Assembly (NCBI GenBank): GCA_001949185.1
Contig: BDGG01000001.1
Location: 5,571,527 to 5,635,526 of the forward strand
Source: Ramazzottius varieornatus
Taxonomy: Eukaryota; Animalia; Tardigrada
DNA length: 64,000 bases
Direction of reading: 5' to 3'
Of the stretch, positions 11,237 through 46,614 are shown in pieces. The position numbers and the translations under genes were made by a program. How positions within the stretch are numbered: the first letter of the stretch is position 1; every line of letters starts with the position of its first letter. The notes under the pieces are model-generated. The model made no database searches. It was not told the origin of the DNA and worked only from the letters and a program-made list of their open reading frames with translations.

Positions 11237-14200
11237 ATGGTGGAGGGATGCACTATGTTGGGTAGTGGACAATGGACACCCGGCGCCTTGCTCGTACTCG
11301 TAATCTTCCTGTGGATTTCCATATGTTGTTACTGCGCACCGATTCGGACCGAGTACCAAGCCTCCGTGAGTTTGGGTTCTCTGGGCCATTGTCAATGTTA
11401 AGGTCGATATGAAAATAACTTGTTATCTCAAGTATCGTCATTGTGTTACAGCAATACCTGACACGGTATGGATACCTGAAGCCTGTCACCGTGCAAGGAG
11501 GCGCACAAGCTTTTTACTCCTACACAAGCATCGTCGAGGCCTTGAGAACCTTTCAGAGGTTCGCTGGACTCGCTCAGACAGGTCAGTACTTTTACTGAGG
11601 CTTTCCACTGCGTGACCAAACCACTCAACAAGATATACAGTGTGGCCATGCCAACTTTCTACAACTTTTTCGAAAAATTCGTTCGAGATACAAAATGATC
11701 GCTGTAGTTTTTCTCCATCACTGTCCGATAGCTGGTGCTATCTTCTTTCAGAACACAACAAAACATCCCTATTCTGATTTCGGTACTTAAACTTACCACT
11801 GGAGAAGTCAGAGGACAGAACTCTAAAGCGGCGCACGAACTGATTTTTTGAATTAATGAGCAAAAGTACTTTTGTTTTTTCCAATTTCGTTCACCATTTG
11901 GGATAAAAACGCTCAAGCAGGATGATAAAGCATCTAAAATCGCTTTGAATTCAAGACGAACCCAGACCAAAATTCTGAATAAATTGGGTTTTCCGGCTGT
12001 ATTTCATTTTCCACAATTTGTGGTTTCGGTCATTTTTGTTCAATAGTTGCGACTGGCATGCTTTAAATATCGGTAGCAAATCAAACTTTTTCCGACAGGC
12101 GAGATGGACGAAGCGACAATACAGGTCATGAACTTGCCTAGGTGTGGCGTGCCAGATATCCTTTCCCACAATGCGTCTGCCGAGGGAACCAACTCATCAA
12201 GCAGTCACTCTAACCATCGCGTCAAACGTTTCTCGTTACAAGGCAGCAAATGGAGCACCACAGGTCAGCGAACGACCCATGTTCTTAGTTGAGTTGGTAT
12301 AAAATGATGGTCTTTCTTTTCCAGATTTGAGTTATAATATTGCACGATATACGCAGGATCTCAGCAAGCAAATGATCGACACCGAAATTGGTCGTGCCTT
12401 CAAAGTATGGAGCGAATTTACTCCGCTAACTTTCTCACATAAACGAGCGGGTCCCGTTCACATCGAACTACTCTTCGCTACCGGCGACCATGGAGATGGC
12501 CAACCTTTCGATGGGCAAGGAAAAACTCTTGCCCATGCGTTCTTCCCCCAATTTGGTGGTAAGAAAATCTTTCCTCATCTGATCGCAAATGCAGCTGGTA
12601 CCGCAGCAAGAATTTTTTCATTGTCAAGGGGATGTCCACTTTGACGATGACGAAGGATGGACACTCAGCTCCTACTCAGGTGATGATCCGACACGTAAGG
12701 ACTTCGAGATTTTTTATCTTGGCGTGCCAGGAATGATTGTGCGATTAGTAATGTTTTTTTTTGCATTAAGATGAACCTTCCAACGGAATGGCACCTCTAG
12801 CAAAACAGTCCCTACTAACTACGTGTTTCGCAGAGGCTATAAAAACACCACAGATAGTATAGAAGGATGTTTGCCTTCTTCTTCTATACATGGGGATTCA
12901 CAGTCGAATCTGCCGTGTGTAAAAAGATATGAATTTTGAAACCTGAAAATTTCAAAAATTCGTACCCGTTCTAGCTAGCATTCTGAAAGAATCAGTGTAC
13001 GGTAGGCTTCTTTGTCATTAACGGTGCGTGCTTTAATTTCTGCGCGTTCCATACCAAGCCGCCACGTTGGAATAGACATGATTACGACGGTCGTTTGTTT
13101 TTGTTTGAATGACCACTCGCTGAATCGTTAAATCATGCAGCAATGCCACAAGTCTATCGTGAGGACGGTAGAGGGCATTTAATGTCGGTCGTGTCCCTTT
13201 TCTGGCAACTCGCCAAACTCATGTCCATTAAAAAATTGATATCTGCATTTTATGTTAGGCAAATTGACTTGTAACGACGCGACCATCCGTTAGAGACGTT
13301 AAAGTAGCCATACCATTTTTTTGAACTGGGAGTTTGGCCATAACTGTCCATCCATTATTGGTAGCATTGATGGGGGTGAAGCTGGATCTGGAATCTTATC
13401 GTGTAACTTGTTTTGAAGGCGTGAATCTACTGCAAACGGCAGCTCATGAAATTGGGTAAGCGCTAAAGACTGCGCTAGTATCAAATGCTACTAATGTCCG
13501 CTGTTCTGTTTTGAAACTAACACTTCCTTGTTTCACTAGCCATGCGCTTGGCTTAGAGCATTCGGAGGTCCATGGAGCACTGATGGCTCCGTTTTACCGT
13601 GGATTCAAACCCACACTGCATCTCGCTGAAGACGATATCGCCGCCATACAAGCGCTATATGGGGACATGCCGACCAAAAAGAACAAGAAGCACATTCATG
13701 CAGAGACGGCTGTCAGCCCAGCTCCGACTTCCGGCAATGCTTGGCCTAACAGCGGACCAGCACCACCGCGAGCGCCATCTGCACGTCGTGGACCCGAAGA
13801 GAACAATCCTTACAATTCAAAGCCGCATCCCGGCTTGATGGCTTCCTCTCCGCACTTTCCTAACGATCCTGATATTTTCAATGCGGTACTGAATCCCGGC
13901 TTTCCCATATGGCCCGAGTTGTGGGACGCTCCGGTACTCAGTCCTGATCCGGGGTACACAGCCAACGGCCTACCGGATATCTGCGCGCTGGACAAGATCG
14001 ACGCTGTCACAATGAACACTGCTGGTGAAACTTTCATTTTCCGCGGTAAGCAGTCCATTCTCTTCTTGCGCTCAGTCGAACGGCGCACGGCTCATTCGTG
14101 TGCTCGTGGACTTGCAGGGGAATATTATTGGAAACTGGCAGACACGGAGGTTGTTCTTGGATATCCGCGGCGCATTTCTGACGGATGGGGAGGGATACCT

Positions 14201-15287
14201 TCCAACATTGATGCAGCGCTATCGTGGAGCGACGGGAAAATTTATTTCTTCAAAGTAACTTTTTTTACACTGGGAAAATATCAAAGTTGCCACAAGTAAC
14301 GCCCAGTCCTGTTTACAGGGGAGCTACTACTGGAGATGGCGCGACAACGCGATCGACCCAGGCTATCCTAAACAAATTCGTCATGGCTTCGCCGGTATAC
14401 CGGACAACCTGGATGCTGCGTTTGTCTGGGGCGGAAATGAGATGACATATTTCATTAAAGGTACAGGAGGAGTAAGCATGTGTGACCCAGTGAGGAAATG
14501 TGTGACCCAGTAGTCTCAGACGGCGCGACATGTTTCAAGTATGCATTACGTTAGCAGAAACACTTTTTATGTAAGATAGACAACACTGTAATTCGTTACG
14601 TCATAGGCTTTATTTCAATTACGAGTGTCTCATGCTTTTCTATGGATGCGCCGTCTGAGACTACTGGGTCACACATTTCCTCACNNNNNNNNNNNNNNNN
14701 NNNNNNNNNNNNNNNNNNNNNNNNNNNNNNNNNNNNNNNNNNNNNNNNNNNNNNNNNNNNNNNNNNNNNNNNNNNNNNNNNNNNNNNNNNNNNNNNNNNN
14801 NNNNNNNNNNNNNNNNNNNNNNNNNNNNNNNNNNNNNNNNNNCTTCCTCCTCCTGTACGGATAGTCCAAGCTAGCTTAGTTCAGTCAGTCGACAATGCAC
14901 GGGGAATAATCTGCCGCTTTTACAGGTGACAAATATTGGCGGTACGATCGCCTATCAAAGCCACCAGTAGCCTCATCTTATCCTCGCCCATTATCGGTAT
15001 GGAAAGGCCTACCCAAGAAGATCGAGGCGGCATTCCAGTGGAAGAACCACAAGACCTATTTTTTTACCGGTAGCTCGTACTATCGTTTCGATGATCGGGA
15101 GTTTCGTACGGAGAGCTCCTATCCTCGCGCCACAAACCTTTGGTGGTTCGGTTGTGGGTCTGTCAAGTCTTTGCGGTTGACCGCCAACGAAAGTGCCCGC
15201 ATGGTTGCAGCGCATGACGATCATTCGGTTCGAAAAGTCTCTGGTTCTCTTGTGCATTTTGACGATGCTTGGCATAACGGCAAATAA
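11237..15287 (+). CDS. Matrix metalloproteinase (M10A, invertebrate Mmp1-like) with hemopexin domain; about 10 exons
   Basis: Signal peptide exon (11237-11365), QYLTRYGYL propeptide, cysteine switch PRCGVPD, furin site RVKR, LAHAFFP, zinc motif split by an intron AAHEIG|HALGLEHS, Met-turn ALMAP, Pro-rich hinge, and hemopexin repeats ending WWFGC. Confidence 0.93.
14490..14684. repeat. Small inverted-repeat element in an MMP intron, next to an N gap
   Basis: GTGAGGAAATGTGTGACCCAGTAGTCTCAGACGGCGC at about 14490 and its reverse complement ending at 14684. Confidence 0.65.
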
Positions 15288-16873
15288 ACGAAGACTTGCA
15301 TACAGTACAACTCGTGATGGGCAGCGCTCGACAAGTGTGTCAGTTGTCCATGTCCGCTCTAAACTGGGGCAGGCTGAATAGAGAGCCAGTCATCTGAGCC
15401 GGGCACTGCTGCACGAAATGGAAAGGGTGTTCCTTTGGTCTTTATTCTGTAATCAAGTTGGTCAGATATGTAGCGCAGCAGGTTTTGAACACGCAGTTTG
15501 CCTAATTATAGGCCGAGACATGATCCCCATGCTTGTCAAGCATCTGAATCTAGTGGCGTTCATCGGAGGGTAATTCATGTATTGTACACTTCACGGGACA
15601 CCAGCAAAAATTCGTCGAAGTTGACGTTGATATCCTCACCATCTTCAGCTTAAAGACGTAATCATGACGTTCAATTCATCTCCTCATATCTAAAGTGAAA
15701 AGAACGTCGGCTTTTGCAGTTCTCGCAAGCAAGGTAAGCAAGTTTGTGCTTTGGTCGGAGTCATACGTACAATGTCGAAAGTTCCTCCCAGCCCGTGATC
15801 AAAATTGATTGGTTTAGCGTGCCTGCACAAGTTCACTATAACTGCAGTAATGTTTCCACAACTGCTAATCAAATACGATCACGGGAGGGGAACTTTCGAC
15901 AGACATTGTACTAGTTCGAAACGTTCGTACCGTACGCCGCTCTGGCCGTAAAAACCTTGAGCTTACAGGCTTAAAGGGCCAGCGGTTGTAATAATGAAAT
16001 CCATTAAAATTGTGGACCCGTTTTTGACTGGCTATTCAAAACATGACGTGTTAGCACGCCTGATGCCTGTGTTGGGTGACGTACAGAAGAGCTCGTATCA
16101 TATCGTTTGATCGCTCCGACTGATACATGCTCGTAATGTTTGGATTAGTGCCTGGAAGAGCTTCCCATACTGCCGTAAAGTGCTGACCCACACGGCAGTC
16201 TTGCAAGCTGTTCCGACTATCGGGAAGAAACATAAACCGCTGACTTGAGTCAGGAGAACTCGACGCAAAATCTGACGAACAAGTTAAGAGGTGCCGAAGT
16301 CTACCGTTGACTGGACGCAGGCCAGAAAAATATTACGCCCTGAGGCATTTCTCTTTTTCTGACACGTTACCATAAGCTCCGCGTACAGCTCAACAAGTGT
16401 CCACGGCGAAAAACAATGCGTACTTTGTGGTATACGTCCATCTGGGTTCGTTTGCACGGAAATGTAGGCCCGCGTACAGCACTGATCAAAAACGGCCAAA
16501 AAACGCGTTCTCGAGCTCTCCGTACTCTAGATTTGAGACATGTACAACCCCTATAATCAGAGTCCATATAGATCTTGCATAGTCCCGCAGCATTGATTGC
16601 CCGAACGGTTAAAACGGCAAAGCTTTAAGGGAAACTTCGACAAAGCTTTGCCGCAACAAGACGACACAAGAGTGCTTATTGGTTCAGACGCGTACGCGTC
16701 TCCGCCCAGTAGTTGTAAGGTGGTGCGTGTCAACTGTGGTAACTTACAATGAGATATAACAAGCACATGCGAACACCACTGGCACGAGTCAACTGGTACT
16801 AGTATGTCGGACTCCGGTTTAGTTGAACACCATACTGTTACCTTGTTGGGGGTTTGAGTTTCGTTTACCGTTT

Positions 16874-17146
16874 TGTAAAGCCTCCCACTGGCTTAACAAG
16901 AACCCTACAAGGTCGGTCAATGAAGAAGGAATTAGGATCAAAAGAGAACTGATTGGGGAGAGTTTTCTTTATCAGTAATGCTAGGTCTCAAGAGAAGGAA
17001 AGGAAAAAAGGAGTCCCGACTGTCACTGACCAGTCGGTTTATATACTTTGACAGCGAAGCAGAAGGAAAGAGAAAGTTCTAGAAGTACGTGAATTGTTCG
17101 TGCTGATTCAGCACGAGTGCTTCATTGCCGAGGTAAGCTCTTTACA
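16874..17146 (-). repeat. 3' LTR (273 bp)
   Basis: TG...CA ends with 7-bp terminal inverted repeat. TATATAAA on the minus strand near 17038-17045. Short purine-rich tract GCGAGGAGG just inside. Confidence 0.95.
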
Positions 17147-17495
17147 GAGCCTCCTCGCTGATCCTACGCGTCCTCGCGTAGTGCTCCATCGACCTGTTAT
17201 TCTCAAGTATTTCCTTGTTGGCTGCGGTTTGGCCTTCGGTCGATATTGGGTTGTCTTGAGTGTGGACGATTTAATGGCCCACTTGCGTGAAGTGGTTGTG
17301 GGTGTTTGCGGTTTTTCGATTTGGCTTGCGGTCAATGTGCAGATGGCTTGAGCTTGGACTGCGGAATTGCTCATTCGTGTGAAGTGGCTTGCGGACTTGC
17401 CGTTTCTCGATATAAATGCTCCGTGCTGTTATCACTGTCATTCAGTTGGTATTGCTTTGGATGTGTTATGGATATCGATTCGGAGGTGGAATGTG

Positions 17496-18008
17496 TCAGC
17501 GACGGGGAACACGAGGAGGATGATCAACTTGAGCGCGAGGAGGTCCGACCCTCTGGATATATAAGTTTCCGGGCCATTTTCTGCTTGTTTCCTTTCGTCG
17601 TAAGTTCAGGATTGCTGCGTTGTAAACTGGCAGCATTGTTGGCATTGGATCGGACACGCTTTTCCAGCCGGACGGCGCGGTTGTTGTGTACCGTACCCGA
17701 GACTTTGGTGTGACACTACGACTGAGTAGGCGAATGGAAGTCGAAAACATGGAACGGCGGGCAACGCAACGAGAGGCACTATATGCGGTAGCCCGTGACG
17801 CTGTTCGTTGCGTGAGTGATTTGGAGTCCAATTCGCTGTATCTGAATGGTAATGTTATGATGGCCTGTGGATGAGCTTTCTTGTTTTCTTCAGGTACCCA
17901 TGCATTCTGGTTCCCTTGGTTTTCCATCGTAGGAGTTCTTTCCGGCGTAATGTCGGGTGCTTGGTGCGTTTCCCTTGACGGAGCTAGGCATGTTGAAACT
18001 TCTGCCAT
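17496..18008 (-). CDS. Possible third accessory ORF of the LTR element (170 aa)
   Basis: Long sense-strand ORF before the 3' LTR; no recognised motif. Confidence 0.3.
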   Translation of the reverse strand: MAEVSTCLAPSRETHQAPDITPERTPTMENQGNQNAWVPEENKKAHPQAIITLPFRYSELDSKSLTQRTASRATAYSASRCVARRSMFSTSIRLLSRSVTPKSRVRYTTTAPSGWKSVSDPMPTMLPVYNAAILNLRRKETSRKWPGNLYIQRVGPPRAQVDHPPRVPRR

Positions 18009-18866
18009 GTCGTCTGGAGGGAAGGGCGGTGAATTACTTGAATGCCTAATCTGACATCATGCCGTTCAATTTCGTGGGTTTGTCTGATGTGCTTGCGGTC
18101 AAGCCTGGTGATCCAGTTCATTTCCGGTACTGGTACGAGCACTTCTGGGAGGTAGTGGAGGCAGGCTTCTTGTTGGATCTACATGGCGCTTGGTCTGGGG
18201 AATGTCTGCAGCTCTGCATGGACCGGGACGACGTGGAGCGATGTATGGATTATCTTGACGGACCTCCGGATTGGATGGATTTGGGGCCTTTCATGGACAT
18301 GATTGGCAGCTTTGATGAGCAAGGAATGCTGGTAAACAATTAATTTGTTCGAGTACTAACGGGAACGTTTTTGACTAAATCGTCCTGTTAGCACGAGGAA
18401 TAAAATGGTTTTGAAGTGTATCTGTAGAGCGAATTTTAGCGTCGGAAGACAGAAAAACGGTGAAGGAACAGAACAAATAGTATCTTATTTCTTACAGCGG
18501 CGTACATACACAACTGTAGTACACGGACAAACGGCTGCAGTAGAGGAAGAAACTACCGCAAAGGAGGAAGAAACTACTGAAGGACAGGTACAGAGCACCC
18601 TTTTCCCGGAAAAGTTTCCTCGGACATTCTTTTTTTTCTTCTGAACATTTTCATTTGCAACATCCCGTAACCAATCTTTTCTTGTTGCGTATTTTCCGAT
18701 ATTTTTTCGAACTGTTCGTTTTCTTTTCACCGTAATTAATTTCTTTTTTTAAAATAAGGACAGACACAACAAATTACAACTGCGATACAATACAATACAC
18801 GTTACAATAGCGTAAGCTGATTCGAGCGCACACTCACCACTCTCCCTTGGTGAGTGGCGCGTCGGG

Positions 18867-19349
18867 CTAGTAGTCCGACTCTCGCGTCGCCTCTGCGATG
18901 TTGACATCAGTCTCCTCTTCGGAGAAGCCGTACTGGGACAGGTCTCCCAGCCGGTCTTGGTCAAACATGATAAAATATTGGATGCACTTCAACTGGAGGA
19001 TTGACCCTTTGATGAATGGGGTGTTCTGGCAGTAGTCAGCATACATTGTCTTGACTAGCTGGATGGTAACTCGACGTGAATTCATCCTTGTAGCCAAGGG
19101 AGATGGTGCGTGAAGCAGGTGTTGTTCCTCGTAGTTGTACAAAGGATTACACGCTTTGAATAGAGGGCTTCGAGGCTGAACAGGAGGTACTTCTCTAGTG
19201 ATGCGTTTTTGAGGGGCATCCAGAGACTGATCAAGTTTTCTCCAAGCTAGGAGAGTTGAGATGGTCTTACGGTTTCGCGGGTCGCGCACGAACTGGCTAA
19301 CCTCGGGACGTTCCCGGCGTGGGGTCACTTGTGTGGTGGCATTTGGCAT
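18867..19349 (-). CDS. Second accessory ORF of the LTR element (about 160 aa); unknown function
   Basis: Open from MPNATTQ to ...EATRESDY* with protein-like composition; no recognised motif. Confidence 0.4.
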   Translation of the reverse strand: MPNATTQVTPRRERPEVSQFVRDPRNRKTISTLLAWRKLDQSLDAPQKRITREVPPVQPRSPLFKACNPLYNYEEQHLLHAPSPLATRMNSRRVTIQLVKTMYADYCQNTPFIKGSILQLKCIQYFIMFDQDRLGDLSQYGFSEEETDVNIAEATRESDY

Positions 19350-19669
19350 GCCTGCCAGAACTATAGCGACAGCCAAGAGGAGCAGGGATGAATGAATGTC
19401 GGTAGTGTGATATGATATGCCCAGTTGGTGAGATATCAAGAAGACTGTGCGATAGGAGGTTATAATCCAATGAGCCAGGAGAACTCCAGAATGAGAAAGG
19501 ACGACTGTGGTATAAGTAGAGAAAACACAGGTTCCTTGATGCCGCGGTAAGCAAAATAATAGATTTGCAGACGATGTAGAACGTGAGGTACATCGAAGTA
19601 TTTTCAACCAAAAACTGCGTCGGTCGGCACAAACGGGGAAGGGCAATCAGGTAATAAGTCTGAAGTGTG

Positions 19670-20460
19670 TTATTTTTTTTGAATTTTGAGATTTGATGAC
19701 GTCGTGCTCGTCAAAAAGAAACATGTGATGCTGGGTATAAGTGACTATCAGGCCGTAGTCGGTAAGGGAAAGATAAAGGATAGATGATTGACTGCCGGTT
19801 CGTCGGTTAGCGATGTAAACCGGCCATCGGACAGGCAGCTCAGAGCAACTGAAGGAGCTCCTCAGGCATGTCGAATGCCGTGAAGAACTCAGCGCATAGG
19901 TCGTGCCATTCAGGCACCATCGTCTCTCGTGGTTAAATGATGAGACAGGGTAGAAGGTACGTGTTGATGGCCATAGCTTTGACTAGCTGTTGGCCTCGGC
20001 GAATTATGTGCGCCGGTCGCGCGTACTGAAGTAAATGGTGGTAACGCTCGGTGTAGTTGGTACTAGGGTCTAGATCAAGGTGGCATCTGTACTGTCTGAA
20101 GGTAGTGGAGCTGAAATTAAATTGATCCAGTGCTTCAGGAAGCCGTGCCAACATGAGGATAGGCATCGCTTCCGGATAGACCACGTTGGTGACTGTACCG
20201 TCACAGAAGTAGTTGATGATGCTTGGAATGGTGCGGAACAGCTGGGCTTGACCCTCAGTGTGGAAGATCGGAGCGTAGATGTCATACAGTGCCGTCATCC
20301 ACGTGTTAGTGGTGGCGATGTCTTGGTGGTAGAGTATGCAGTACTGACGGTACATCGGTATCTGCAACAGCAACATTTCGGAAATGGGTTGTTTCGCGAA
20401 AGACTGAGTCGGTCGGAAACTAGCGCACGCATCGGTGGGATAGCCGAAAAGGTAAACCAT
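19670..20460 (-). pseudogene. Accessory ORF downstream of env (about 260-270 aa if two in-frame stops are ignored); unknown function
   Basis: The 175-aa ORF continues in the same frame past TAA and TGA: PRETMVPEWHDLCAEFFTAFDMPEELLQLL*AACPMAVY... Confidence 0.55.
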
Positions 20461-20529
20461 TAGGAGGGTGAGTAGTAGTTGTCGGGGTGGGATGCCGGGG
20501 TTGGTTGATCGTTCGGCAGTCGTTGATTG

Positions 20530-23240
20530 TCATTTTTTTAGCTTTTTGACAACCTCGGTAACCTCTTCGTTTAATTCATTGATTTGCTTCCTTGCTGGCT
20601 TCATCGGCGCAACATTCGGTGGCGCTGTCGGTGGTACCCCGTAGGATTTGTTGTTGATGGTGACTGGTGGTGGCCTGGTGAGGTTTTCTAAGGCGTTGTC
20701 GTTCGCAGAGTTTTCCAGCCACCGCATTCGACTAAAATCAGGCCTACGATGACAATCGGAGCGAACACAAAGAGAACTATGTAGACGTTTCTGAGAGAAG
20801 ACACGAATCTCTCGATTGCTCCTGAAACCCCTTCGCAAACTTCTGCGACAGTGTTGGTCTGTTCGCTACCCTGTCGCTGAGCGTGAATCACTGTGTCAAT
20901 CAGGGAAGGGCTTCCGGAATTCTCCATGACTGCTGATAGCTCGCCAAAGTAGCTGCAATCAGATGGCTCGTGCCAATGGGCCAACGACTGCATTGCAGTC
21001 GAGTCAGCCGCCATCTTGTACATGGCTGCCGAGTGATCATGGCCAATGGATATCGTTTGTTTGGCCTTCTGTCAGTCATGAGCATCTTCTTTCCATTACA
21101 TTATTTGATCGCCAATTGTCGTAAAGAGGCCACCGTGTAGGCAGGGAACGATGGGATTGATCAGAGTGTAGCCATCAAGACTTAGAGAGGAGTTGAGGAC
21201 GAACGGCTCCATTCCACACTTGGTCTTCTTAGCACTGAAATCTGTGGTTACTTTCTGACACTGGTACAAAAGGGCTTGTGACGTCCCGTGTGCCGTGATA
21301 GAATGGCAATCGTTTAGCCCGATTAGTTTTGCGGCACGGACCCCTAACTGCTTCGCCATCATGGACAGGAGGGCTGCTTTGTTGAGGCGGGATTGACAGT
21401 CCAAGTTGTGGACTTCATTATTCAGAATGTTGAAAATCTGGACTTGGTTATCGCGTAAGTACTGTAGGTGTGATATCAGGAACTTTTGGGAAGATCACCA
21501 GAGGCTGCATACGGGAATACTTCCTACACGTCGGTATCGCTTGACTGGCGTAGTCGGTTCAGAAAGCCGACCTTTCTTTGTGCTCGCAATCCGGATTTTG
21601 ACTGCTGATAAGCTGGCTGAATAAACGGTGGCTGAATCTGTGATAATACCAAGGGTAGAGCTACGGGTGACTCAGGCTTGGTGGGATGAATATAGGCTCG
21701 TGTTGCGGTGGTAGTACTTGCATCTGCTTTGGTGCTTGCATGTAACGAGGGCCGTCGTGGAAGCTTTGATGACCGCGAGCGGATTTGCTGATTCTGTTAC
21801 CGTCAGGGTCATACTGTCTTCGGACATCCGCCCGGAACTGGTTTTCAGTCTCGAGGTTGTCCTGCTCTTTTCGCAGCTGCTCCTGAAGGAGCCTTTCATC
21901 TTCCGTTCGAGTCCATTACATTTGCAGTCGGTGTTGCTCTAACCGGTCTTCGTACTCGGTTAGTTGTTCAGGAGTCGGGTGTTGCATGTTCGGAGGCTGA
22001 GGTGTCGCCTCTTGGTATTGAGCGGGTCTTGACTCTATTCGCTCATTTGGTGGCGTTTGCGACAATGTCTGTGGTGGCGGTCGCTGTGGCAGGTCGACAG
22101 GGACCGGCACTGGTTGCGAAGTACTGGTAATGTTGTTTGGTCGTTGGTTTATGACTTGCTCCGTCGTTACGTTGATAATCGGTGGCATGACCATTTCAGG
22201 CATGACTCGTCTGGATTCGGAAATTTTGGTGGGGGTGCCTCCTCGCTATTTTCTGAGTTGCCTCCGTTGAGCCTCTAGTCGTAGTTCGTACGGAGACTTG
22301 GGTTCAACCCATCTTGGACGGGAGGTTGGTTTTGTGCGAGGCTGTTGGGCTTGACGTTTGTATCGACTTGCGACCAGATCTAGAACGTCATCGTGCTCTT
22401 CTGATGTGTAGGTGAAGTTGAGGACGTCGGAAAATCCTTTGACGACGTAATGCATGTCGACGAGCGTAGTACAGTTAGTTTGCTGAGCTTGTTCAAATAG
22501 GATAAATTCAACTTGCTTAGTAGGGTCCCGTAGACGAGGACGGGTCTTTTCGAGTTTTCACATAGTACCAGAACCGTTGGCGACAAGCTGGTACTCGCAT
22601 TCTTTCTTTTTGGGCGATTGGTCAATCGCGTTCCATATCACGGTCATGTGATTCTTGCTCGCATAACCTTTGTTGCGGTCGGCACCGAGCTCACCCAAAA
22701 ACGAGATGATGGGGTCTTTCGGACCGTTCTGAGTGAGGACTGTATGTAGGTCAACAAGACAGTTCCAAACAGAGTTCTTCGAAGTGGTCATCCATGAGTA
22801 TTCACGGGAAGGCGGCCTGGTAAAGGCGTACGTCTCGGAATTTGGTAAGCGAACCATAGGGTTCCCGTTGCAGGAAAGCGTTTGAGCCATTCGCTTACAG
22901 CCTGTATCAGAGAAATCGACTGGGCCGGACGAAGGTATCGTATCTGTGGCACCCCAGAAGGATTTGTAGGTTTCAATGTGTTGCAGCGTAGCTTTGCAGG
23001 TTGTTCCGATAAAGTGCTGGGCATCCTTTTTCGTGGCGTGGATGGAATAGTTGACATCCCGTGGCTTGGGCTCTGGCGCCAGCTTTTCACATGTAGTATA
23101 GGTGGCCAAATCCAGAAGGCCCAAAAACTGTTGATTTTTGCAATTGCAGATGTCTGCCTGAATAGCAAAGGCCGTAGGCAGCAGGATGAAACAGATTACG
23201 AATGTGAGCCAAGCAAGGAGGTGGTGCATGGCATTCATAT
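20530..23240 (-). pseudogene. env: env-like type I membrane glycoprotein, class III fusogen-like (about 900 aa, fragmented)
   Basis: Signal peptide MHHLLAWLTFVICFILLPTAFA, Cys-rich ectodomain with FWG and YSW putative fusion loops, furin-like RYKR, central helix ending LDCQ, and TM segment VYIVLFVFAPIVIVGLILV. Confidence 0.78.
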
Positions 23241-23729
23241 GGCGTGGTGGTTTTGTACGGGTTGATCGGCGAACCCTTGCAGCCGACTGGGTTTGGTCCT
23301 GGAGGTCCTCGTCGGACTTTGAGATGCTGTCAGCGCTAAGGCCCGATAACATTCGGTTTCCGCGTTATTTCTTGGTGTTTAGTACCTTGACCGCCTTGAC
23401 CAAAGACGTCGTTTGCGGATGAGTTCCCTGTCCGGATAAGCTTGGACTGTTCTCCCGCTCAGAGTTGGGAGGGTTTGCCAGATTAGAAACGCTGCGGTAC
23501 TTGCGTAGGACGGGAGGGTCTTCAAGTGCCTCCAACCTAGGTCGAGGCTTTGCTTCCCGAGTGGTGGCTGCTTGCGGTGCTACCTGCCTGCGGTGCTACC
23601 AGGCGGGAACCGGGAATCGTGAGAGGGGGCGGCATGGCCTTGGATGCGATATTCAACCTTTTTGGTGGGGTACGAACCCGTGGGTTGTCCATGCTGGACT
23701 TCGGAAGTATCTCGTCGGTTGTGGACTTG

Positions 23730-26700
23730 CTACAACGAGCAATCGTGATGGATAGTTGCAGCGTGTTGGGTCGGGTTGCAGGGTTTGTACGAGGAGGAGG
23801 TGGTTCGACTGTCGTTCCAGCAGACTATAAAGTCGTCCTCGTCGGCGTCGTCGTCGTGTTGCTCGTTGAGTTTTGCAGTTGTAGCATTCCGCGACACTTG
23901 TGTAGCTAGTATTGGACGGTCATTCGCTGGAACTGCTTCGTTATCAGAACTCTCAATGACTTTGAATTCAATAGGGTGAAGTTCATCGAAATCAGGTTCT
24001 TCGGGGTCCTCGAGGTCCTCGTCGCTGCCGGTGCGTCTAACATAACGTTTCAAACGAGCTATGTTAACAACGGTGCCCGTGTTTGAACCCGGACGGTTGT
24101 AACTAATGCGGAAGTTGTTAGGACCAGTTTGTTGCAAGATGTCGTAGGGACCATCCTAATAGTGATGGAGTTTGGATCCTACTCCTCTTGACCGTGCGGG
24201 GGGCTGAAGAGTAAAACTTGATTGCCTACTTTGAACGGAGTTTCCTTACGCTTGGGATTGTTATATGCCAAGTTGTATCGGCGTGACTCTCCCAGGTTAA
24301 ACTGAGCGTAGGCTCGAATGTTTCCGAGATGCTGGTGTGTGTCAGCGAGGAAGGTTCCGCGTAGTCGATCGGAAATGCAGAATCGAAACCGAAAAGACAC
24401 TTAACCCCATACATAACTTTGTAGGGTGACACTTTGGTTGTTTCGTTAGTTGCCGCATTAATGGCGAAAACAGCGTAAGGAACGTGACTGGCCCAGTCCG
24501 ACTGGGACTTGGCGCAAAGCTTGGCGAGCTGAGAACCCAACGTGTGGTGTCGACGCTCAACCACTCCTGTGGTTGTAGGTGTCCACGCCGTGTTCTTCAG
24601 ATGCTTCATGTCAAGCATTCTGAGCAGATGTTGCGTGATCTGACCAGTAAACTTCACTCGTAAGTCCGACCGTACTACACGGACAAACCCGTAGCGAAGA
24701 GCTGCTTCCAGGAGGAACTTAGCGAAAGTGAGTTCCGTGTGGCTGGATGTTGTTTTGGCAACTAGGAAGCCGCTGGACTGGTCGATGCAAGTCAGAATAT
24801 AGGTGTGACCGTTAGATGACCTTGTGATGGGTCTGACGGTGTCGCATACCACCGAGTGCCAGACTCGAGGTACCGTGGTCATGGACAGTCTCACAGACTT
24901 GTGTCCATAGTGTTTTCGGAAGGACTAGGCGCTGAATCTCATATCCCCGTTGGTCGTTGGAGACGTTGTAGAGGATCCCGTTGTCGATGGTGAACATCTG
25001 GGCGAGACGTTGGACTCGTTCTGTTGTATCCTGTGACTCTGTCGATAGGAATTCGATAATCGGTTTACAGAAGGGGTCCGTCAACTGTTCAGACGCAATG
25101 TCCAGTGTTTGTAAGTCGAGCTGAGCGGACAGGTATAGAAGCGGGAACTCAGCAGGTTCGGTGCTATCCGGCGGAACGTCACCGATGGCATTGCGGCTGA
25201 CAGCGTCAGCATCTTTGTGCTTCGAACCCGAGCGTTGGATATAAATGAACTGAAATTCGGATAACCGGATGGACCAACTCTGAAGCTTCGCGTTTTGAGG
25301 TTATTAATGAAGGTGAGGGAGATGTGGTCGGTGTAGACCACAACTCGTCTCCCAAGAATGTACTTGCGCCACCGATCCTCGCAGTACAATTTGCCCAAGG
25401 CTTCACGTTCCGCAGTTGAAAGGTTTTGCTCAGGGCGGGAGAACTTGCGAGAGCAATACGCAACCGGGTGAAAGTACTTGTCTGTACTATTAACTTTCTG
25501 TAGAAGAACTCCTCCACAGCTGGAGTTACTCGCATCCACGTGCATGGAGTACTCTGCTGTTTTCTCGTCAAAAAACGAGAGAACAGGAGAAGAACACATC
25601 TTTCTCTTCAACTCTGTGAAGGCAGCATCCGCTTCTGGACTCCAGATTAGCTTTTGTGTCTTTTCGACCTGCATACACTTGCGTAAGCGGATTAGCGATG
25701 CGGGCGAATCCATCGATGAACATTCTGTAGAATGAGCAAAGGCCGAGAAAGGAACGGCGTTCGGTTACCGTAACTGGTTTAGGGTAGTCTCTGACAGCCT
25801 CCGTTTTGGCAGGGTCTTGGGAAATTCCCGCTTCGTTGACGATGAAGCCGAGAATCTTTGCCGATGGCATGGCAAACCGTGACTTCTTCACGTTGACTGT
25901 AAAGTTTGCTTCCCGTAGACGCTGGAACACAAGGCGTAGCTTGGCTAGGTGTTCATCGAAAGTTGTGGAGCTAATTGCCAAGTCATCGACGTAGATTGAC
26001 ACGTCGCGGTTTAGCATGTCGCCGAAGAGAGTAATCATGCTTTGTTGAAAGATGGAACTGGCGAGGTTTACTCCAAACGGTAATACTTTATACCGAAATG
26101 TTCCAGCTTCTGTGATTACGCTAAGCTTGTCGCGCGAATCTTCGTGTACTGAGATTTGGTTATATCCTTGTACAAGGTCGATGGTTGTAGAATAGCGGCC
26201 TCCACGCATGGAATCGAGGATATCCGATATGAGTGGCATACAGTATTTAGGCTCCACTACTACCGTATCAAGACGCCGGTAGTCACCGCACATTCTCCAA
26301 CTGGGGGGATCGGTGTTCTTTGGGACTAGGACTACTGGGGAGGCCCAAGGACTGCGACTAGGTTCGATGAGCCCTTGGTCGATCAGCTTCTTTATTTCTG
26401 CGCTGATTATCTCCCGCTCTTTCTGTGGCATCCGGCGCACAGGCTGCCATATTGGCTTGGCATTCCCAGTATCGATACGAAGTGGCTCGACGTTAGCTAC
26501 GCCAATAGGGTGCTCTGCTGAGGAAAAGAGGTCCATGTGTTCTCTCAAGAGCGCTTTTATGGCGAAAAGCTGGTTTGATTCAAGATGCTTCCCGAAGACC
26601 AGGTCTGAATCGACGGCATCTGTCCTCTGGTCAGGATCGTTATCCACGAAATTTCCTGCTATGCAGAGTGTCAGCAGGCTGGCTACCTCTGCCGAAGGTT

Positions 26701-26980
26701 GTTTGTCCCACTTTTCATACAAAGTGGCTTGGTCATTCATCTGGTCACTGTCTTCCGTGGCGTAGAAGCAGTATGGCTTATCGCATGTGAATATTGTGTC
26801 ACGTACATATTGTATCATCGTGCAAGACCAAAGATGTGTTTTCCCACTGGTCTCGGTTGACGAACTCTTGCTTACAGCGACACCTGAAATTAGGACCAAG
26901 GTGTTGTGCTGAAGCGTGTGGGTAGGAGAAGACGTAAATGCGGTAGGCAAGCCATGAAGCATTTGGTGTCCCGCATACAC
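23730..26980 (-). pseudogene. pol: pol: reverse transcriptase, RNase H and integrase; several frameshifts
   Basis: PSRSPWASPVVLVPK, WRMCGDYRRL, LPFG, YVDD (RT); HVDAS, AEREAL, YTDH (RNase H); HTYILTCID, VRSD, GVVER (integrase core). Confidence 0.93.
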
Positions 26981-27025
26981 AGGTGAACGGATCCTTGGTT
27001 GACTCCAAGGTAAGAAGAGCCCTGT

Positions 27026-28973
27026 TTAGCCCAGAGCGAAAGATAGGGCTAGTTGATCCGTGTGATGCTTCGTGACGTTAATGGGAGGATATGTTGGACT
27101 CCTGATACACGATACAAACGTAGCGTTGTCCTTCTCGACCATTTGTTGATTGGGTAACTGATCACTAGGGACCAAGACTGGACTATTGGTCCCGGTCAGC
27201 TTGAGAAAGTCTGGCCAAGACAAGATGAAGTCGTATTTCTGTGGCATTAGTTGTAGTACATGAGCTCTGCACCATGTAGATCTGAAGTAGGCTGTAATTT
27301 TGAGGTCGATATGGCCTTCTGTGATCATCGTGTGACCGGTTGCTCTCACAATCTTGATGTGCTCGTCACGTTGCAGGAGGGGTAGCAAGGATAGCTGCTT
27401 GATAACATCCAAGGATACGCACGTGACTGTGCTTCCAGAGTCGAGTAGGGCAAAGGCTGGCATACCTTCGATTTCTAGCTTGACGATAGCTGGTTGACCG
27501 GAATCGGTTGAAACATGGTTCGTCAGGACATCGGTAGCAGTGTTGCTGTCATCGGAGGTCATCACAAGAATAGAAAATTGTTGTGGTGGCGCGTACGTCA
27601 TGGTGTTCATCTGGTCGCGACGTGCTTGAGATCCGGTAGAGACTTTGTTGGGTCGGTCCGGACAACCGGAGGCGAAGTGTGGTCCGCCGCAGACATAACA
27701 AGACACTGCTCGGTTGGTTGGTCTAGACGTGGCAGTGAAAGTCCTTGCTGACTGACTGGTGGTATTTGTGGTACCACCCGTGATGTTATTGTTACCTGGT
27801 CGTGTCTGTACTGTTTCCGTTGTGACCACCTCTTGTTACTGTGGTCTCGGTGTCTGGTTATTGGTGTCGCCGTTACGGTTATTGTAACCACCGTTGTAAC
27901 TACTGTTGGACCTGTTGAATCCGTTGTTGTTGCGGTTGAAACCTCCACTGAAACCACCTCTGTAGTTGTTTTCGTTACCGTTACCGCGGTATCCGCCGTT
28001 GTTGGAGTGTCCACCATAGCTCCGGTTGTTGTTACCGTTCTGGTACTGGTTGTAGTCGTTGTAACCTTGGTATCCTCTGTTGGACTGGCTGCGGTATCCT
28101 CCTCGGAAACTGGGTTGTCCGTTGAAGGCACCGCGATAATTGTAGTTGCGGTTGAAACCTCCACTGAAGCCACCTTTGTAGTTGCGGTTGATGTTACCGT
28201 TGTACCACGTCCCATTGTTTTGCCGTTCGGGCGTGTAGACACGAGTCTGCACAACTTGTGCTGTTCGGTGTGGCATCGGGTCCGCTTTGTCGTTAGGCAT
28301 TTGTTGTTCCCTAAAGAGTCGAGTTTGCTGTGACGATTTCTTCTCTGCCTCGATGACTCGAGCAGTGATCTGCTTGAACTGTTTCGTTGTTGTGTGCTGG
28401 TCGGCGGTTCCACCAGGAATCCGCTGAGTCACGGAAGCGTAAGGACGCATGTTCCACCATGTCCCTCGCTGGAATACGTTGAAGCTTGCAAGCCGTCTCA
28501 AACTTCTTGATGAACATACCGATTTCTTCGTCGTCATGGCCGTGGAACAACCTCATTGGAATGTTGATTTTTGTGGCTGCTATAGCGTCGATGAGGTTAT
28601 CGGCATCGAGCTTGACTTTCTTCGGTATTTCGTTGGCGTTGTCATCGTCCTGCTGTTCGGTCTTAACTTTATCGACAGCGTCTGTCTTGGGCAAATTAAC
28701 GAACAGACCTTTCGCTTCGTCGTTTCGTTCACCTCTTTCTCCCCCTTTTTCTCCATCTTGTCGTTCGATGTCGTCACTGTTGGCGTTCTTGGCCATTCTA
28801 TTTTGTTGTTGTGCGGCTCTGGTTGCTTGAACGTGCTGGTTGTGGTGATGGTCTACCAGATCAGCGTTGATCGAAGAAATTGGTGGGTCCACGTCGGAGG
28901 CAGGTGAATTGATATGTCCTCCTAGTCGGCGGAAGGTGGACGCAACAAATGACTTTGCGTACTCAGTTGCCAA
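27026..28973 (-). pseudogene. gag: gag (capsid-like region, N/G/R/Y-rich region, CCHC knuckle) plus aspartic protease; frameshifted
   Basis: LFHGHDDEEIGMFIKKFETACKL...ADSWW (retrotransposon gag-like), CYVCGGPHFASGC knuckle, ALLDSGSTVTCVS protease motif. Split over ORFs 28311-28973, 27836-28537 and 27026-27829. Confidence 0.88.
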
Positions 28974-29281
28974 GCTGTCGGTGGTAGCGAAGAAGTAGTC
29001 GAAGTTGACGACTGTAACGTGCTATTGGCAGAGGGCGGTAGTGGCAACGTTGAGTCGTGATGATCAGATAGATTAGGAAGTTCGGTATCCGTGTTAGTAA
29101 CGTGCTTAGTTTTGACGACGGTTACTTCGAAACGTTCTTCTGTTTTTTGTGGTGACGTAGGGACTGACGAAGCGGTACGAGCTGTACCCTTTTCGGGCGA
29201 TGCTGATATTGATGCAGACTTCCTTCGCGGAATTACCATCAAAAACGGTAAGATGATAATGAAGTGCAAGGCAGACCGTTT

Positions 29282-29554
29282 TGTAAAGCCTCCCACTGGC
29301 TTAACAAGAACCCTACAAGGTCGGTCAATGAAGAAGGAATTAGGATCAAAAGAGAACTGATTGGGGAGAGTTTTCTTTATCAGTAATGCTAGGTCTCAAG
29401 AGAAGGAAAGGAAAAAAGGAGTCCCGACTGTCACTGACCAGTCGGTTTATATACTTTGACAGCGAAGCAGAAGGAAAGAGAAAGTTCTAGAAGTACGTGA
29501 ATTGTTCGTGCTGATTCAGCACGAGTGCTTCATTGCCGAGGTAAGCTCTTTACA
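29282..29554 (-). repeat. 5' LTR (273 bp)
   Basis: No differences from 16874-17146 found by eye. Confidence 0.95.
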
Positions 29555-29643: not shown

Positions 29644-29984
29644 TAGAGCATTAGGCCGCAAGTCCAAAAGTGCACTGCTGGTGTGCGGCACACCTTACCA
29701 GGTTGCTGCGCGCTGTGCTGTAATGCATAACTTTTCCGCGTGGGAGCTGTGCCGCTGCGCTACACACCGATTGGGCGGCATAATTGTCAGCAGAAGGGGT
29801 GTTCTTTTGGAAAAACGCCAGCTTGAAGTACGGCAGAGCTCAGAATTCCGAAGTTCAAAGATCGAAACCTATGTTCTTGATTAATATTGACGCAGTCTCG
29901 TCCCCCGCTCCATGCTGTGGTATGCTGCACAGATTTAGAATTTGCAACTGCAGCGCAGCGAATGGCGCCAGATTCCGTGTTCTA
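29644..29984. mobile_element. hAT-type MITE, older copy of the 5047-5482 family
   Basis: Starts TAGAGCATTAGGCCGC and ends GCCAGATTCCGTGTTCTA. Degenerate 8-bp TSD ACTCAAAG/ACTTAGAG. Confidence 0.72.
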
Positions 29985-30053
29985 ACTTAGAGCAGTCTGC
30001 GTACTGTATCGAACAATTTCTATACGTGCACTATCAACGTAACCCCCACTTGA
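29751..30053 (+). repeat. 303-bp direct repeat, copy 1
   Basis: Reads identical to 31903-32205; the ORF track gives the same 68-aa translation in both. Confidence 0.9.
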
Positions 30054-31902: not shown

Positions 31903-32205
31903 GCCGCTGCGCTACACACCGATTGGGCGGCATAATTGTCAGCAGAAGGGGTGTTCTTTTGGAAAAACGCCAGCTTGAAGTACGGCAGAGCTCAGAATTC
32001 CGAAGTTCAAAGATCGAAACCTATGTTCTTGATTAATATTGACGCAGTCTCGTCCCCCGCTCCATGCTGTGGTATGCTGCACAGATTTAGAATTTGCAAC
32101 TGCAGCGCAGCGAATGGCGCCAGATTCCGTGTTCTAACTTAGAGCAGTCTGCGTACTGTATCGAACAATTTCTATACGTGCACTATCAACGTAACCCCCA
32201 CTTGA
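31903..32205 (+). repeat. 303-bp direct repeat, copy 2
   Basis: Reads identical to 29751-30053. Confidence 0.9.
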
Positions 32206-39410: not shown

Positions 39411-40939
39411 CTCTTTTGTCCTTTTGTTGATTCATGTTTCTGGATCTTGGGATTTCTTTTTTCTTTTTCTTTATTGTATTATTACAAGTAAAAGGTCTGA
39501 GAAAGAAAGGTTCTGCTAGGCCTCAGAAATTCCTTCGTCAATGTCTAGATCCAAAGGCAAGTCGTTTTCGTTATTTTCGTACTCGGTTAGACAGAAGTAG
39601 TCCTCAAGAGGAATCGGCACCGTCTTCCCCGTCCTTGGTCACCCTCGGCAGCAGACAACGATCTTTCAGGTCCTGGTACACCATTTTGGCGCATGAGTTG
39701 ATGGCGCACTTTTCGCAGCACGAAACCTATCCTTTGTAGTCTTGTCCAGAAGCAAAGCAGTGCGCAGTGAATTTCCCATACTGTAGGGTAATGATGTAGT
39801 CCCGAACATGACATCCTGCGTCCTGAAAAAGAATCCGGACAACGTCGGCATAAGTGGGATACACCATTTTGACAAGCAAAAGACTGAAGAATGAATAGCA
39901 CAGCACACTGTGTGATTTTATAGCAAACTCAAGCCACCCAAGAATAGTCTGTGACGTTGGAGAAAATGACGCTTAGTACCCAAACAAATCAAAAGTGCTC
40001 GGGCGTAAACGAAGTACTGTCGTCTTGGATGCCTTCCAGCCGCGGATATAGGAGCAATCAGTGCACGGGATGATGGTTCTAGCACCAGGCTGGACGGCTT
40101 TGGGGATCATGCCTGATTTCATGGATTGGTAGACCTTCAAGGCGCAAGAGTTGCGAGTACAGACGTCACAACAGGAAGAGTTGCTTCCTCGGAATGGCGT
40201 AGGAGACCAGGGAGTTTCTACCACAGCAATGAAACTGCGGGAATTGGGATGAAGATAAAAGTTTTCCAGATGGATGCCATGATGGAGCGCGATACAGTCC
40301 ACAGCTTCAGCAAAGGAATAAGCTGTCATTCTAATCGTCCGTGGGCTCCACAGGGATGAAACCGTTAGGAATGCAGTACTCCTGCCGCGTGTTTCCGTAC
40401 AGTGCGACCTTCTCCAGACAGAAATGATCCGAGCAGGGGATAGGCAGTTCGATTCCAGAACGCGTACTCTTTTCCACCTGTTGGCACTCTTTCAGGTAGA
40501 TCTAGACCTTCCTGGAACAAGAATTAACAGCACAAAGACCACAGCAGGAGACTTCACCCTTAAAGGATGTCTTCCACAGACGAAGTGGAAGCTTGACAGT
40601 GGCCAAGAATTTGCCGTCGTTAATCGAGATTATGTTGTATTGGGGAGTAATTCCACGATCCGCCAGGATAGTTCTGACAATCCTTTCAAAAGTGTAAGCA
40701 GACATACTGGCAAGAATGGGACTGGTTATACGTTGAGCAGGTTTGTTAAGTATAACTTTTCAGCACCCAAGCAGAGTGAATGAGATACATACAACACTCA
40801 TGATAAGGATCAAGAGAGCAGGGGAGGCGTTATCTTGTTCAGACGCGTTTGTACATGTCTAATCTTGTTAGCAGTGCCGACTGTTGAATAAAAGGCACCC
40901 AGGAGCTGATTTCTGCAGTTGTAACTTTTAGTTTACAAA

Positions 40940-42257: not shown

Positions 42258-42489
42258 GTAGAGTAGCAGTAATTGAAAACTAAATAATTCTGCGATTTTG
42301 CTTTTATTTTTATCGCATTTTTATCTGTCTTACAAATTTCTCAAAAACTCATCACTAAGAATTTCTGTGTTTAAATGCAAAAAATGGTTAACGTATTGGC
42401 ATACCATGATACCATTGGCTTTTGTATAGTCAGTAAGCAAATGAACAATGTGTGAATATGACTCATGACCAACTCTTCGCTCTTCGCAG

Positions 42490-43357: not shown

Positions 43358-43554
43358 CTGCGGCGCTGCTGCGCGAAGAGCCAGTTGAGCCATCGCAGCT
43401 ACCCCAGCAAAAAGAGCTTTGAGTACTTGCGGGAATCCTGATCCGTTTTGGTACGCCGAACCGCGGTACCGGACCATTGGGTTGCCTCCGCCCTGCGCGT
43501 GACCAAAAATTTGATCATACCGCTTGGATCCGGTTCGTATCGAGTGAGCTGCAT
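43358..43554 (-). pseudogene. Amphipathic virion protein (cupiennin/pVI-like), fused by deletion to MCP
   Basis: QGGG...YRGSAYQNGSGFPQVLKALFAGV matches the Polinton pattern QxGxG...GxxYQxGxG. Confidence 0.65.
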
Positions 43555-43559
43555 AGCGT

Positions 43560-45316: not shown

Positions 45317-45451
45317 CGGTGCAGCAAGAACTGACGAAGGTTACACGAAATTCGCGACAAAGTCGCAGCACAGTGGGTAGAAATGCAGAATTTATGATGT
45401 TACTGTAGGACTATCCACCGTTCCTCAAATCCACCGGCACCCTTTTACTTT

Positions 45452-46563: not shown

Positions 46564-46614
46564 GGCGTGGAACTTGCGTTTGGTTACGCGAAACGTAAGT
46601 TTTCCTTAGCTGCC

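What the first reader, a model, noticed from the sequence alone, without database searches (positions are those of the whole stretch)
20530..23352. Gypsy retroelement with a class III (rhabdovirus G / herpes gB / chuvirus-type) fusogen fused in frame to the Pol tail: a candidate new invertebrate retrovirus-like lineage
Seen: after integrase, one frame runs through a disordered tail (one TAA) into RRSTRTKPPRH, a typical Gypsy Pol end. It then continues directly into a signal peptide and a Cys-rich ectodomain. GTTC-x12-FWG-x17-C and a second loop YSW resemble the spacing of the two fusion loops in VSV G (GWMC...WYG...C...GYA). Next come RYKR plus a Pro/Gln linker, a long helix ending LDCQ, a CGMEP/DGYTL/PC block and a TM anchor. 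Known: insect errantivirus env derives from baculovirus F (class I), whereas class III captures are known from some Bel/Pao elements and nematode Mavericks. Inference: an independent class III capture by a Ty3/Gypsy element, expressed as a Pol-Env polyprotein and possibly infectious.
Basis: partly seen in the sequence, partly recalled or inferred. Interest (0 to 1): 0.85.

Follow-up and report, generated by a model that had tools for sequence, protein, structure and literature searches.

The report
Dead tardigrade retroelement with herpes-like envelope
This is a broken copy of a retrovirus-like jumping gene, likely from a tardigrade, carrying a gene predicted to encode a herpes/rabies-type membrane-fusion protein; the combination is real but has already been described in tardigrades and many other animals.

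Summary
The motifs are real. The window holds a 12.7-kb Ty3/gypsy LTR element (minus strand, 16874-29554) with gag-PR-RT-RH-IN followed by an env. A natural relative, 36-41% identical to the env pieces, is predicted to have a class III fold (herpes gB and rhabdovirus G tied).

It is not a new capture. Chary and Hayashi (eLife, PMC13524379) describe gB-type env on gypsy elements across animals, five of them in tardigrades. The env groups (SH-aLRT 99) with a Hypsibius protein that matches their Hduj_errantivirus_6 at 97 of 100 residues. The RT clade could not be tested.

This copy is dead: env has at least five stops and two frame changes, and integrase is not in the env frame. Pol-Env fusion is still the likely ancestral state: tardigrade and Daphnia relatives read integrase-tail-signal-env in one predicted protein, and the paper's supplement labels some elements GAG-POL-ENV.

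I found no description of the 3.4 kb between env and the 3' LTR, which holds two orphan ORFs and a possible antisense spliced gene. The scan noted this kind of element before, in springtail and flatworm genomes.

The parts
29282..29554 (-). 5' LTR, 273 nt, TGTAAAG...CTTTACA, identical to the 3' LTR; preceded by AAAC (candidate 4-nt target-site duplication). No TGG-type primer-binding site follows it.
   Evidence: loose contig ends at 29282 and 29554 mark the same boundaries
27662..28796 (-). gag, broken (frame change near 28550, stop at 27838), with an Asn/Gly/Tyr-rich stretch and a CX2CX3HX4C knuckle at 27700-27662
   Evidence: read; no Pfam gag hit, so the name rests on position and knuckle
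27305..27484 (-). aspartic protease
   Evidence: PF13975 E 3.3e-5
25276..26560 (-). reverse transcriptase and RNase H, with frame changes near 25677 and 25290
   Evidence: RVT_1 E 4.9e-25, RT_RNaseH_2 E 1.4e-24; second PDB hit is named Ty3-G Gag-Pol, E 2.8e-47, against 1e-27 or weaker for retroviral RTs
24039..25294 (-). short RNase H-integrase bridge, integrase core and C-terminal GPY/SH3 domain; zinc-finger region largely missing
   Evidence: rve E 3.7e-6, Integrase_p58_C E 4.2e-4; residues 747-805 of Paramacrobiotus P0155 have no match
23239..24038 (-). acidic, Pro-rich Pol tail spread over three frames, one TAA at 23367, ending RRSTRTKPPRH
   Evidence: sister-copy protein P0004 reads through the TAA position without a stop
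23164..23238 (-). env signal sequence, with its own Met at 23238 (second Met at 23229)
   Evidence: hydropathy peak 2.38; cleavage site inferred
22366..23163 (-). env fusion domain and PH-like domain (class III domains I-II); predicted fusion loops FWG 22959-22951 and YSW 22800-22792; stop at 22560
21495..22365 (-). furin-type site RYKR and Pro/Gln/Arg-rich linker with a charged stretch; stops at 22248 and 21918, frame change before 21494
   Evidence: similar long linker in P0003 and P0008
20730..21494 (-). env central helix (ends LDCQ), crown domain and TM anchor (20786-20730); stops at 21098 and 21074
   Evidence: 41% to P0003, E 3e-64; helix 505-551 and strands 566-645 in the P0003 model
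20533..20729 (-). likely env cytoplasmic tail, in another frame
   Evidence: position after the TM; inferred
19843..20529 (-). ORF4, orphan: 198 open codons, continuing past a stop to 19843; hydrophobic stretch near its start
   Evidence: 74% to P0163 from another contig of the same species; no family named
18867..19646 (-). ORF5, orphan: 259 open codons
   Evidence: chance test; no family named
18050..18644 (+). candidate antisense spliced gene: exon to 18331, GT..AG intron, exon from 18498; the join keeps the frame
   Evidence: one contig of run X12, depth 11.3, 29 letters on the short side; not in DNA run X1; donor and acceptor
16874..17160 (-). purine-rich tract (17147-17160) and 3' LTR (16874-17146), followed by AAAC

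Best explanation
This is a decayed copy of a Ty3/gypsy LTR retroelement, likely from the tardigrade Ramazzottius, whose env is predicted to be a class III (gB/G-type) fusion protein and which likely belongs to the HSV/gB-type errantiviruses already described in tardigrades. Shown: LTRs, gag-PR-RT-RH-IN order, env motifs, and many breaks. Inferred working of the intact ancestor: one long frame ran from Pol through a disordered tail into an internal signal sequence. The signal would have threaded Env into the ER and signal peptidase would have cut it from Pol. Furin would cut at RYKR. Env trimers on budded particles would insert two fusion loops (FWG, YSW) into a target membrane and carry the element from cell to cell, perhaps soma to germline as Drosophila gypsy does. 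The linker sits where about half of the scanned relatives carry a beta-trefoil lectin domain, so this is likely a variable attachment or shielding slot. This copy makes none of these proteins.
For: LTR pair with TG..CA ends and candidate AAAC duplication. Ty3-type RT and domain order. Env: 185 homologues. Model of relative P0003 from a 106-row alignment has pLDDT mostly above 90 over residues 11-140 and 541-640. Every row shown in the PDB Foldseek list is herpes gB or vesiculovirus G, best E 3e-6. VIA: PRV gB Z 10.0, rmsd 5.9 over 201; Mokola G Z 9.7, rmsd 3.8 over 125. The family profile puts the FWG and YSW columns on the FVGY and YHW loops of four PDB 'Glycoprotein' chains, E 0.004-0.009 (that these are rabies G is recalled). 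The window env keeps all 14 of the most conserved Cys columns. It groups with Hypsibius P0005, P0003 and P0008 at SH-aLRT 99. P0005 equals the paper's Hduj_errantivirus_6 row at 97 of 100 residues, counted by eye. Fusion: P0155 reads RT-RH-IN-tail-signal-env in 1742 aa; P0013 and Daphnia P0112 carry integrase above cut-off, P0131 weakly; P0007, P0013, P0031 and P0131 have no Met ahead of the hydrophobic core. Four supplement labels read GAG-POL-ENV or POL-ENV, one of them tardigrade. Host: best named hits are Ramazzottius proteins at 85% and 99%.
Against: The structure is of a relative, not of the window's own protein; pTM is only 0.38 and whole-chain rmsd to gB is about 40 A. RT membership in a described clade was not tested. 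The tree is the quick method without bootstrap. 100 of 112 homologues with a locatable N-terminus start at or near the signal sequence and only 12 of 112 have a long extension (38 of 150 could not be placed). The nearest described element is labelled GAG-POL, not GAG-POL-ENV, and the window env has its own Met. Fused relatives are gene predictions, and some skip breaks with imposed introns (P0004, P0007, P0162). Fusion activity and infectivity are not shown here, and the paper calls the entry mechanism of these elements unknown.
Confidence: 0.88

Rival explanations
1. Same element and fold, but Env was made on its own from a spliced or internally started message using the Met at 23238; the open frame from the Pol tail is incidental.
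For: Own Met just ahead of the signal. 100 of 112 homologues are called from the signal. Hduj_errantivirus_6 is labelled GAG-POL. Drosophila gypsy env is spliced (recalled).
Against: Relatives P0007, P0013, P0031 and P0131 have no Met before the hydrophobic core. P0013, P0155 and P0157 read integrase into env. Sister copy P0004 has no stop in the tail. Gene callers can choose inner starts, which inflates the 100.
Confidence: 0.3
2. An independent, recent capture of a rhabdovirus- or chuvirus-type G by a gypsy element: a new lineage.
For: The fusion domain alone fits rhabdovirus G closely (rmsd 3.0-3.8 over about 120 residues). The top seven BFVD hits are glycoproteins of invertebrate RNA viruses, several named rhabdo-related. 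Weak Rhabdo_glycop_FD hit, E 0.13.
Against: Identity to any viral protein is 7-16%, against 36-41% to retroelement env of a described family. Relatives span tardigrades and Daphnia. The paper already lists five tardigrade elements. gB aligns over the whole ectodomain, G only over the fusion domain.
Confidence: 0.04
3. The 3.4 kb behind env is captured host DNA or non-coding filler, and its ORFs are chance.
For: No family or outside homologue found. Under an order-2 Markov null, a longest frame of 259 codons or more arose in 88 of 1000 trials and both long frames on the minus strand in 34 of 1000.
Against: Under an order-1 null the figures are 3 and 1 of 1000. DNA contig depth over the stretch resembles that over env, so it travels with the family. 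One RNA-type contig shows a frame-keeping splice.
Confidence: 0.45

Closest known systems
Tardigrada_Eutardigrada_Hduj_errantivirus_6 (HSV/gB-type ENV, Tardigrada_C2 set; Chary and Hayashi, eLife, PMC13524379)
   Same: Collinear env domains I-II including FWG-T-D, RYKR and the long linker insert. Hypsibius P0005 of this family is 40% identical to the window piece, E 1e-44, and shares its clade. Both lack the extra CxxC pair. Short RNase H bridge.
   Different: Other host genus; this copy is dead. The supplement labels Hduj_6 GAG-POL. No 3' accessory region is described in the text I read.
Pmet_errantivirus_4 and related Paramacrobiotus elements (P0013, P0155)
   Same: Tardigrade gypsy with gB-type env behind the integrase tail; label GAG-POL-ENV; RT 34% identical to P0155.
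   Different: Separate env subclade; CxxC pair present; much shorter linker.
Herpesvirus gB and rhabdovirus G (class III fusogens)
   Same: Predicted fusion domain with two loops, PH-like domain, central helix and crown.
   Different: 7-16% identity; encoded by a retroelement; long disordered insert after the furin site.
Anakin BEL/Pao elements with chuvirus glycoprotein (PMC7642597, search listing only)
   Same: LTR element with a class III glycoprotein.
   Different: BEL/Pao, not gypsy; no sign here that this env is the chuvirus type.
Drosophila gypsy errantiviruses
   Same: Ty3/gypsy element with env; the model for soma-to-germline infection.
   Different: F-type class I env; pseudo-RNase H bridge (PMC13524379, section 7).

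Membership tests
Ty3/gypsy LTR retrotransposon | Flanking LTRs with TG..CA ends and target-site duplication | tested here: met
   273-nt identical pair, candidate AAAC duplication
Ty3/gypsy LTR retrotransposon | PR-RT-RH-IN order with Ty3-type RT | tested here: met
Ty3/gypsy LTR retrotransposon | tRNA primer-binding site behind the 5' LTR | tested here: inconclusive
   No TGG start; other copies differ from this one at 29275. 4 of 5 tardigrade elements in the paper also list none.
HSV/gB-type errantivirus (PMC13524379) | env behind pol with signal sequence, ectodomain and TM | tested here: met
HSV/gB-type errantivirus (PMC13524379) | Five-domain gB-like class III fold with fusion loops | tested here: met
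   On relative P0003 (36-41% identical, collinear); loops mapped
HSV/gB-type errantivirus (PMC13524379) | env homologous to described tardigrade members | tested here: met
HSV/gB-type errantivirus (PMC13524379) | C2c cysteine-bridge pattern | tested here: inconclusive
   14 conserved Cys kept, variable CxxC pair absent as in Hduj_6; the figure that defines C2c could not be seen
'Ancient' errantivirus group (PMC13524379) | RNase H plus short mini domain rather than a second pseudo-RNase H | tested here: inconclusive
   Bridge aligns with P0155 623-746 and has no second RNase H hit; not folded
'Ancient' errantivirus group (PMC13524379) | RT falls in a described clade | not testable with these tools
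Intact errantivirus (paper's inclusion rule) | Uninterrupted gag, pol and env | tested here: not met
   this lowers 'active element', not family membership
Insect F-type errantivirus | Class I F-type env | tested here: not met
   Fold matches are class III
Infectious retrovirus-like element | Particles that fuse with and enter cells | not testable with these tools
   Needs bench work

The most novel reading that the evidence does not exclude
The Ramazzottius lineage is a 'complex' errantivirus: besides a Pol-Env polyprotein cut by signal peptidase, it carries two accessory genes behind env and a spliced antisense gene read from the 3' LTR side, an invertebrate parallel to the accessory and antisense genes of complex retroviruses.
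Probability: 0.25. Interest if true: 0.55.

Novelty: new member of a known kind. Interest (0 to 1): 0.22.

Why it matters
The headline claim adds little: gB-type env on gypsy elements is published, tardigrades included. The element adds a third tardigrade genus. The paper's screen counted one POL and one ENV candidate in this species but annotated none. Two side points could matter. First, Env behind an internal signal in one frame with Pol would tie envelope amount to enzyme amount and need signal peptidase to free Pol; the paper's main text does not discuss this. Second, real accessory or antisense genes would make this a complex retrovirus-like element in an invertebrate.

Tried and rejected
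Word-index search with the N-terminal env piece among longer proteins: none of 478 candidates. Single-sequence PDB search: one unrelated weak hit. Atlas: no usable hit for env, only scores of 0.78 for ORF5. Single-sequence fold of P0003: pLDDT 42, not used. No genomic loci of relatives could be fetched: P0003 and P0008 in metagenome contigs and P0003 in viral contigs gave none, and alignments were too divergent for the tool. The Pol-Env junction and the 3' region of relatives were therefore not seen as DNA. gp64 is not among the rows shown, which does not exclude it. No listed run is on record as RNA, so cover by X4, X5 and X12 is not evidence of expression; no joint into env was listed. Selection on ORF4: 3 of the 10 listed differences fall on third codon positions, and 2 of 6 in the env C-terminal frame (counted by hand, which shows 40 of 605 rows), so copies look neutrally decayed and the test is uninformative. 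ORF5 against phages: no match. P0162 matches the window in three pieces and is probably a gene model of this same locus, so it was not counted as support. Identical LTRs were not taken as a date of insertion: the identity runs 7 nt past the LTR end, other copies differ exactly there, and the inside is heavily decayed, so recent LTR-to-LTR copying or assembly is as likely. Paper searches for tardigrade env elements and accessory ORFs found nothing on point beyond PMC13524379.

Full report
1. Observation. The claim of one frame from integrase into env does not hold for this copy. The integrase C-terminal domain, the middle of the tail, and the tail end with env lie in three different frames, and a TAA stands at 23367. 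Env carries stops at 22560, 22248, 21918, 21098 and 21074, one frame change in the linker and one after the TM.

2. The element. A 273-nt LTR pair (29282-29554 and 16874-17146, identical, TG..CA, candidate AAAC duplication, purine tract before the 3' copy) bounds 12,681 nt. Contigs of other copies leave the window at the same boundaries. [quoted passage not shown] The two best solved RT matches score E 3e-48 and 3e-47, the second named Ty3-G. Every gene is broken, and about 60 residues of the integrase zinc finger have no counterpart. DNA run X1 lays 281 contigs on the inside: 117 at 99% or more, 87 at 95-99%, 77 at 90-95%. This is a small family of decayed copies. The best named relatives are Ramazzottius varieornatus proteins at 85% and 99%, so the host is likely that tardigrade.

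3. The env. HMMER over 1.84 billion proteins gave 185 hits at E<=0.001, of which 150 were listed. P0003, a natural relative that lacks its N-terminus, matches both halves of the window env collinearly (36% over 258, 41% over 265). I aligned 106 sequences (the two window pieces and 104 relatives, chosen mostly for length) and folded P0003 with them. Mean pLDDT is 68.7, mostly above 90 over residues 11-140 and 541-640, and low in the linker. All rows shown by Foldseek against PDB are herpes gB or vesiculovirus G. The top BFVD rows are glycoproteins of invertebrate RNA viruses. VIA gives gB Z up to 10.2 across the ectodomain, with rmsd near 40 because the domains are placed differently, and rmsd 5.9 over 201 residues for domains I-II. 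Lyssavirus and vesiculovirus G score Z 9.0-9.7 with rmsd 3.0-3.8 over the fusion domain. gB and G are tied within 1 Z. The family profile places the FWG and YSW columns on the FVGY and YHW loops of four PDB glycoprotein chains (E 0.004-0.009; their identity as rabies G is recalled). Two homologues pass the Pfam cut-off for Monjiviricetes_fusion. The class III reading and the loop assignment are supported.

4. Known or new. Chary and Hayashi (PMC13524379) describe HSV/gB-type env on Ty3/gypsy elements across animals and argue for a pre-Cambrian origin. I read the abstract, sections 3, 6, 7 and 14, part 1 of 2 of sections 5 and 9, passages found by term, and supplement rows found by search; the figures were not visible. 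Five tardigrade elements are listed. The row for Hduj_errantivirus_6 is collinear with the window env, including RYKR and the long insert. Hypsibius protein P0005 equals that row at 97 of 100 residues by eye. In a quick ML tree of domains I-II (99 of 106 rows; 7 dropped for covering under 140 residues there), the window env, P0005, P0003 and P0008 form a group at SH-aLRT 99. An RT tree against the paper's elements could not be built. The paper's screen counted one POL and one ENV candidate in this species and annotated none. Three earlier notes of this scan reached the same paper for other genomes; I had found it independently.

5. Pol-Env fusion. It is not visible here, but it is likely ancestral. 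Sister-copy protein P0004 runs through the TAA position. Hypsibius P0007 runs tail-signal-ectodomain. Paramacrobiotus P0013, P0155 and P0157 and Daphnia P0112 and P0131 join integrase to env. Four of these relatives have no Met before the hydrophobic core. Four labels in the paper's supplement read GAG-POL-ENV or POL-ENV, one for a tardigrade; that these mean single ORFs is my reading. The main text has no hit for fused, in frame, single ORF or polyprotein. Against: 100 of 112 placeable homologues start at the signal (38 of 150 not placeable), Hduj_6 is labelled GAG-POL, the window env has its own Met, and all fused examples are gene predictions. I put the polyprotein at about 0.65.

6. Mechanism (inferred). 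In the intact ancestor, translation through the Pol tail would expose an internal signal, Env would enter the ER, and signal peptidase would release it. Furin would cut at RYKR ahead of a disordered linker, the position of the furin loop in several gB proteins (recalled). Trimers would insert two loops per subunit into the target membrane. 15 of 32 scanned homologues have a beta-trefoil lectin in the linker's place, so the slot likely tunes attachment. The likely purpose is spread between cells of one animal, by analogy to Drosophila gypsy; the paper calls the entry mechanism of gB-type elements unknown. This copy is inert.

7. What is left over. Between env and the 3' LTR lie 3,387 nt at a depth like env's. 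ORF4 and ORF5 are open for 198 and 259 codons. Both on one strand arose in 1 of 1000 order-1 and 34 of 1000 order-2 simulations. ORF4 has one independent homologue, in the same species (74%). No family matched. One contig of run X12 (RNA status guessed) joins 18331 to 18498 across GT..AG on the opposite strand and keeps the frame; it has only 29 letters on the short side and is absent from DNA run X1. Extra ORFs behind pol are known in rotifer elements (PMC5408684, passages). Long pol-to-LTR regions are known in plant Retand elements (PMC11963269, search listing with counts for 'antisense ORF'). I found nothing on such regions in tardigrade elements. Unread figures and unsearched supplement parts may bear on this.

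8. Verdict. Real, correctly typed as class III, but a new dead member of a described kind. Interest 0.22. Most novel reading not excluded: a complex errantivirus with accessory and antisense genes, probability 0.25, interest 0.55 if true.

Noticed in passing
window 17147-20529: 3.4 kb between env and the 3' LTR with two long orphan ORFs on the element's strand (198 and 259 codons) and a third open frame of 186; the stretch is multi-copy like the rest of the element.
   Followed up: partly
window 18050-18644 (+): Frame-keeping GT..AG splice, antisense to the element, in one contig of run X12; further donor and acceptor candidates lie upstream at 17445-17932.
   Followed up: partly
homologues P0017-P0134: 15 of 32 scanned env homologues carry one or two beta-trefoil (Ricin_B_lectin) domains between domain II and the central helix, where this element has a Pro/Gln linker. 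'lectin' does not occur in the paper's main text or supplements, which note only 'extra domain(s)'. A candidate sugar-binding attachment module.
   Followed up: partly
homologues P0011, P0075, P0175: Another env subgroup is fused behind a Cys/His-rich, zinc-finger-like region rather than integrase; P0075 is from Paramacrobiotus.
   Followed up: no
window 29282-29540: In run X12 a 3950-nt contig at depth 253 has an LTR copy at one end and goes on in other sequence: possibly a host transcript that starts or ends in a solo LTR.
   Followed up: no
window 29275-29281 and 16867-16873: The LTR identity runs 7 nt past the LTR end at both copies, and the 5' LTR has no primer-binding site; other copies diverge at 29275.
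   Followed up: partly
window 12303-15287 (+): Host matrix metalloproteinase gene (Peptidase_M10, Hemopexin) ends about 1.6 kb from the 3' LTR.
   Followed up: no
window 40300-47800: Fragments that look Polinton/Maverick-like by recalled motifs (packaging-ATPase-like frame 47232-47798, capsid-like frame 42992-43594); no Pfam hit.
   Followed up: no
window 58543-59337 (-), 60804-62223 (+), 51812-52123 (-): CatSper delta/epsilon-like gene piece, a Tc5/pogo DDE transposase, and a second short RT/RNase H relic.
   Followed up: no
window 29751-30050 / 31903-32202 and 46615-47243: Exact 300-nt direct repeat and exact 283-nt inverted repeat, possibly assembly joins.
   Followed up: no
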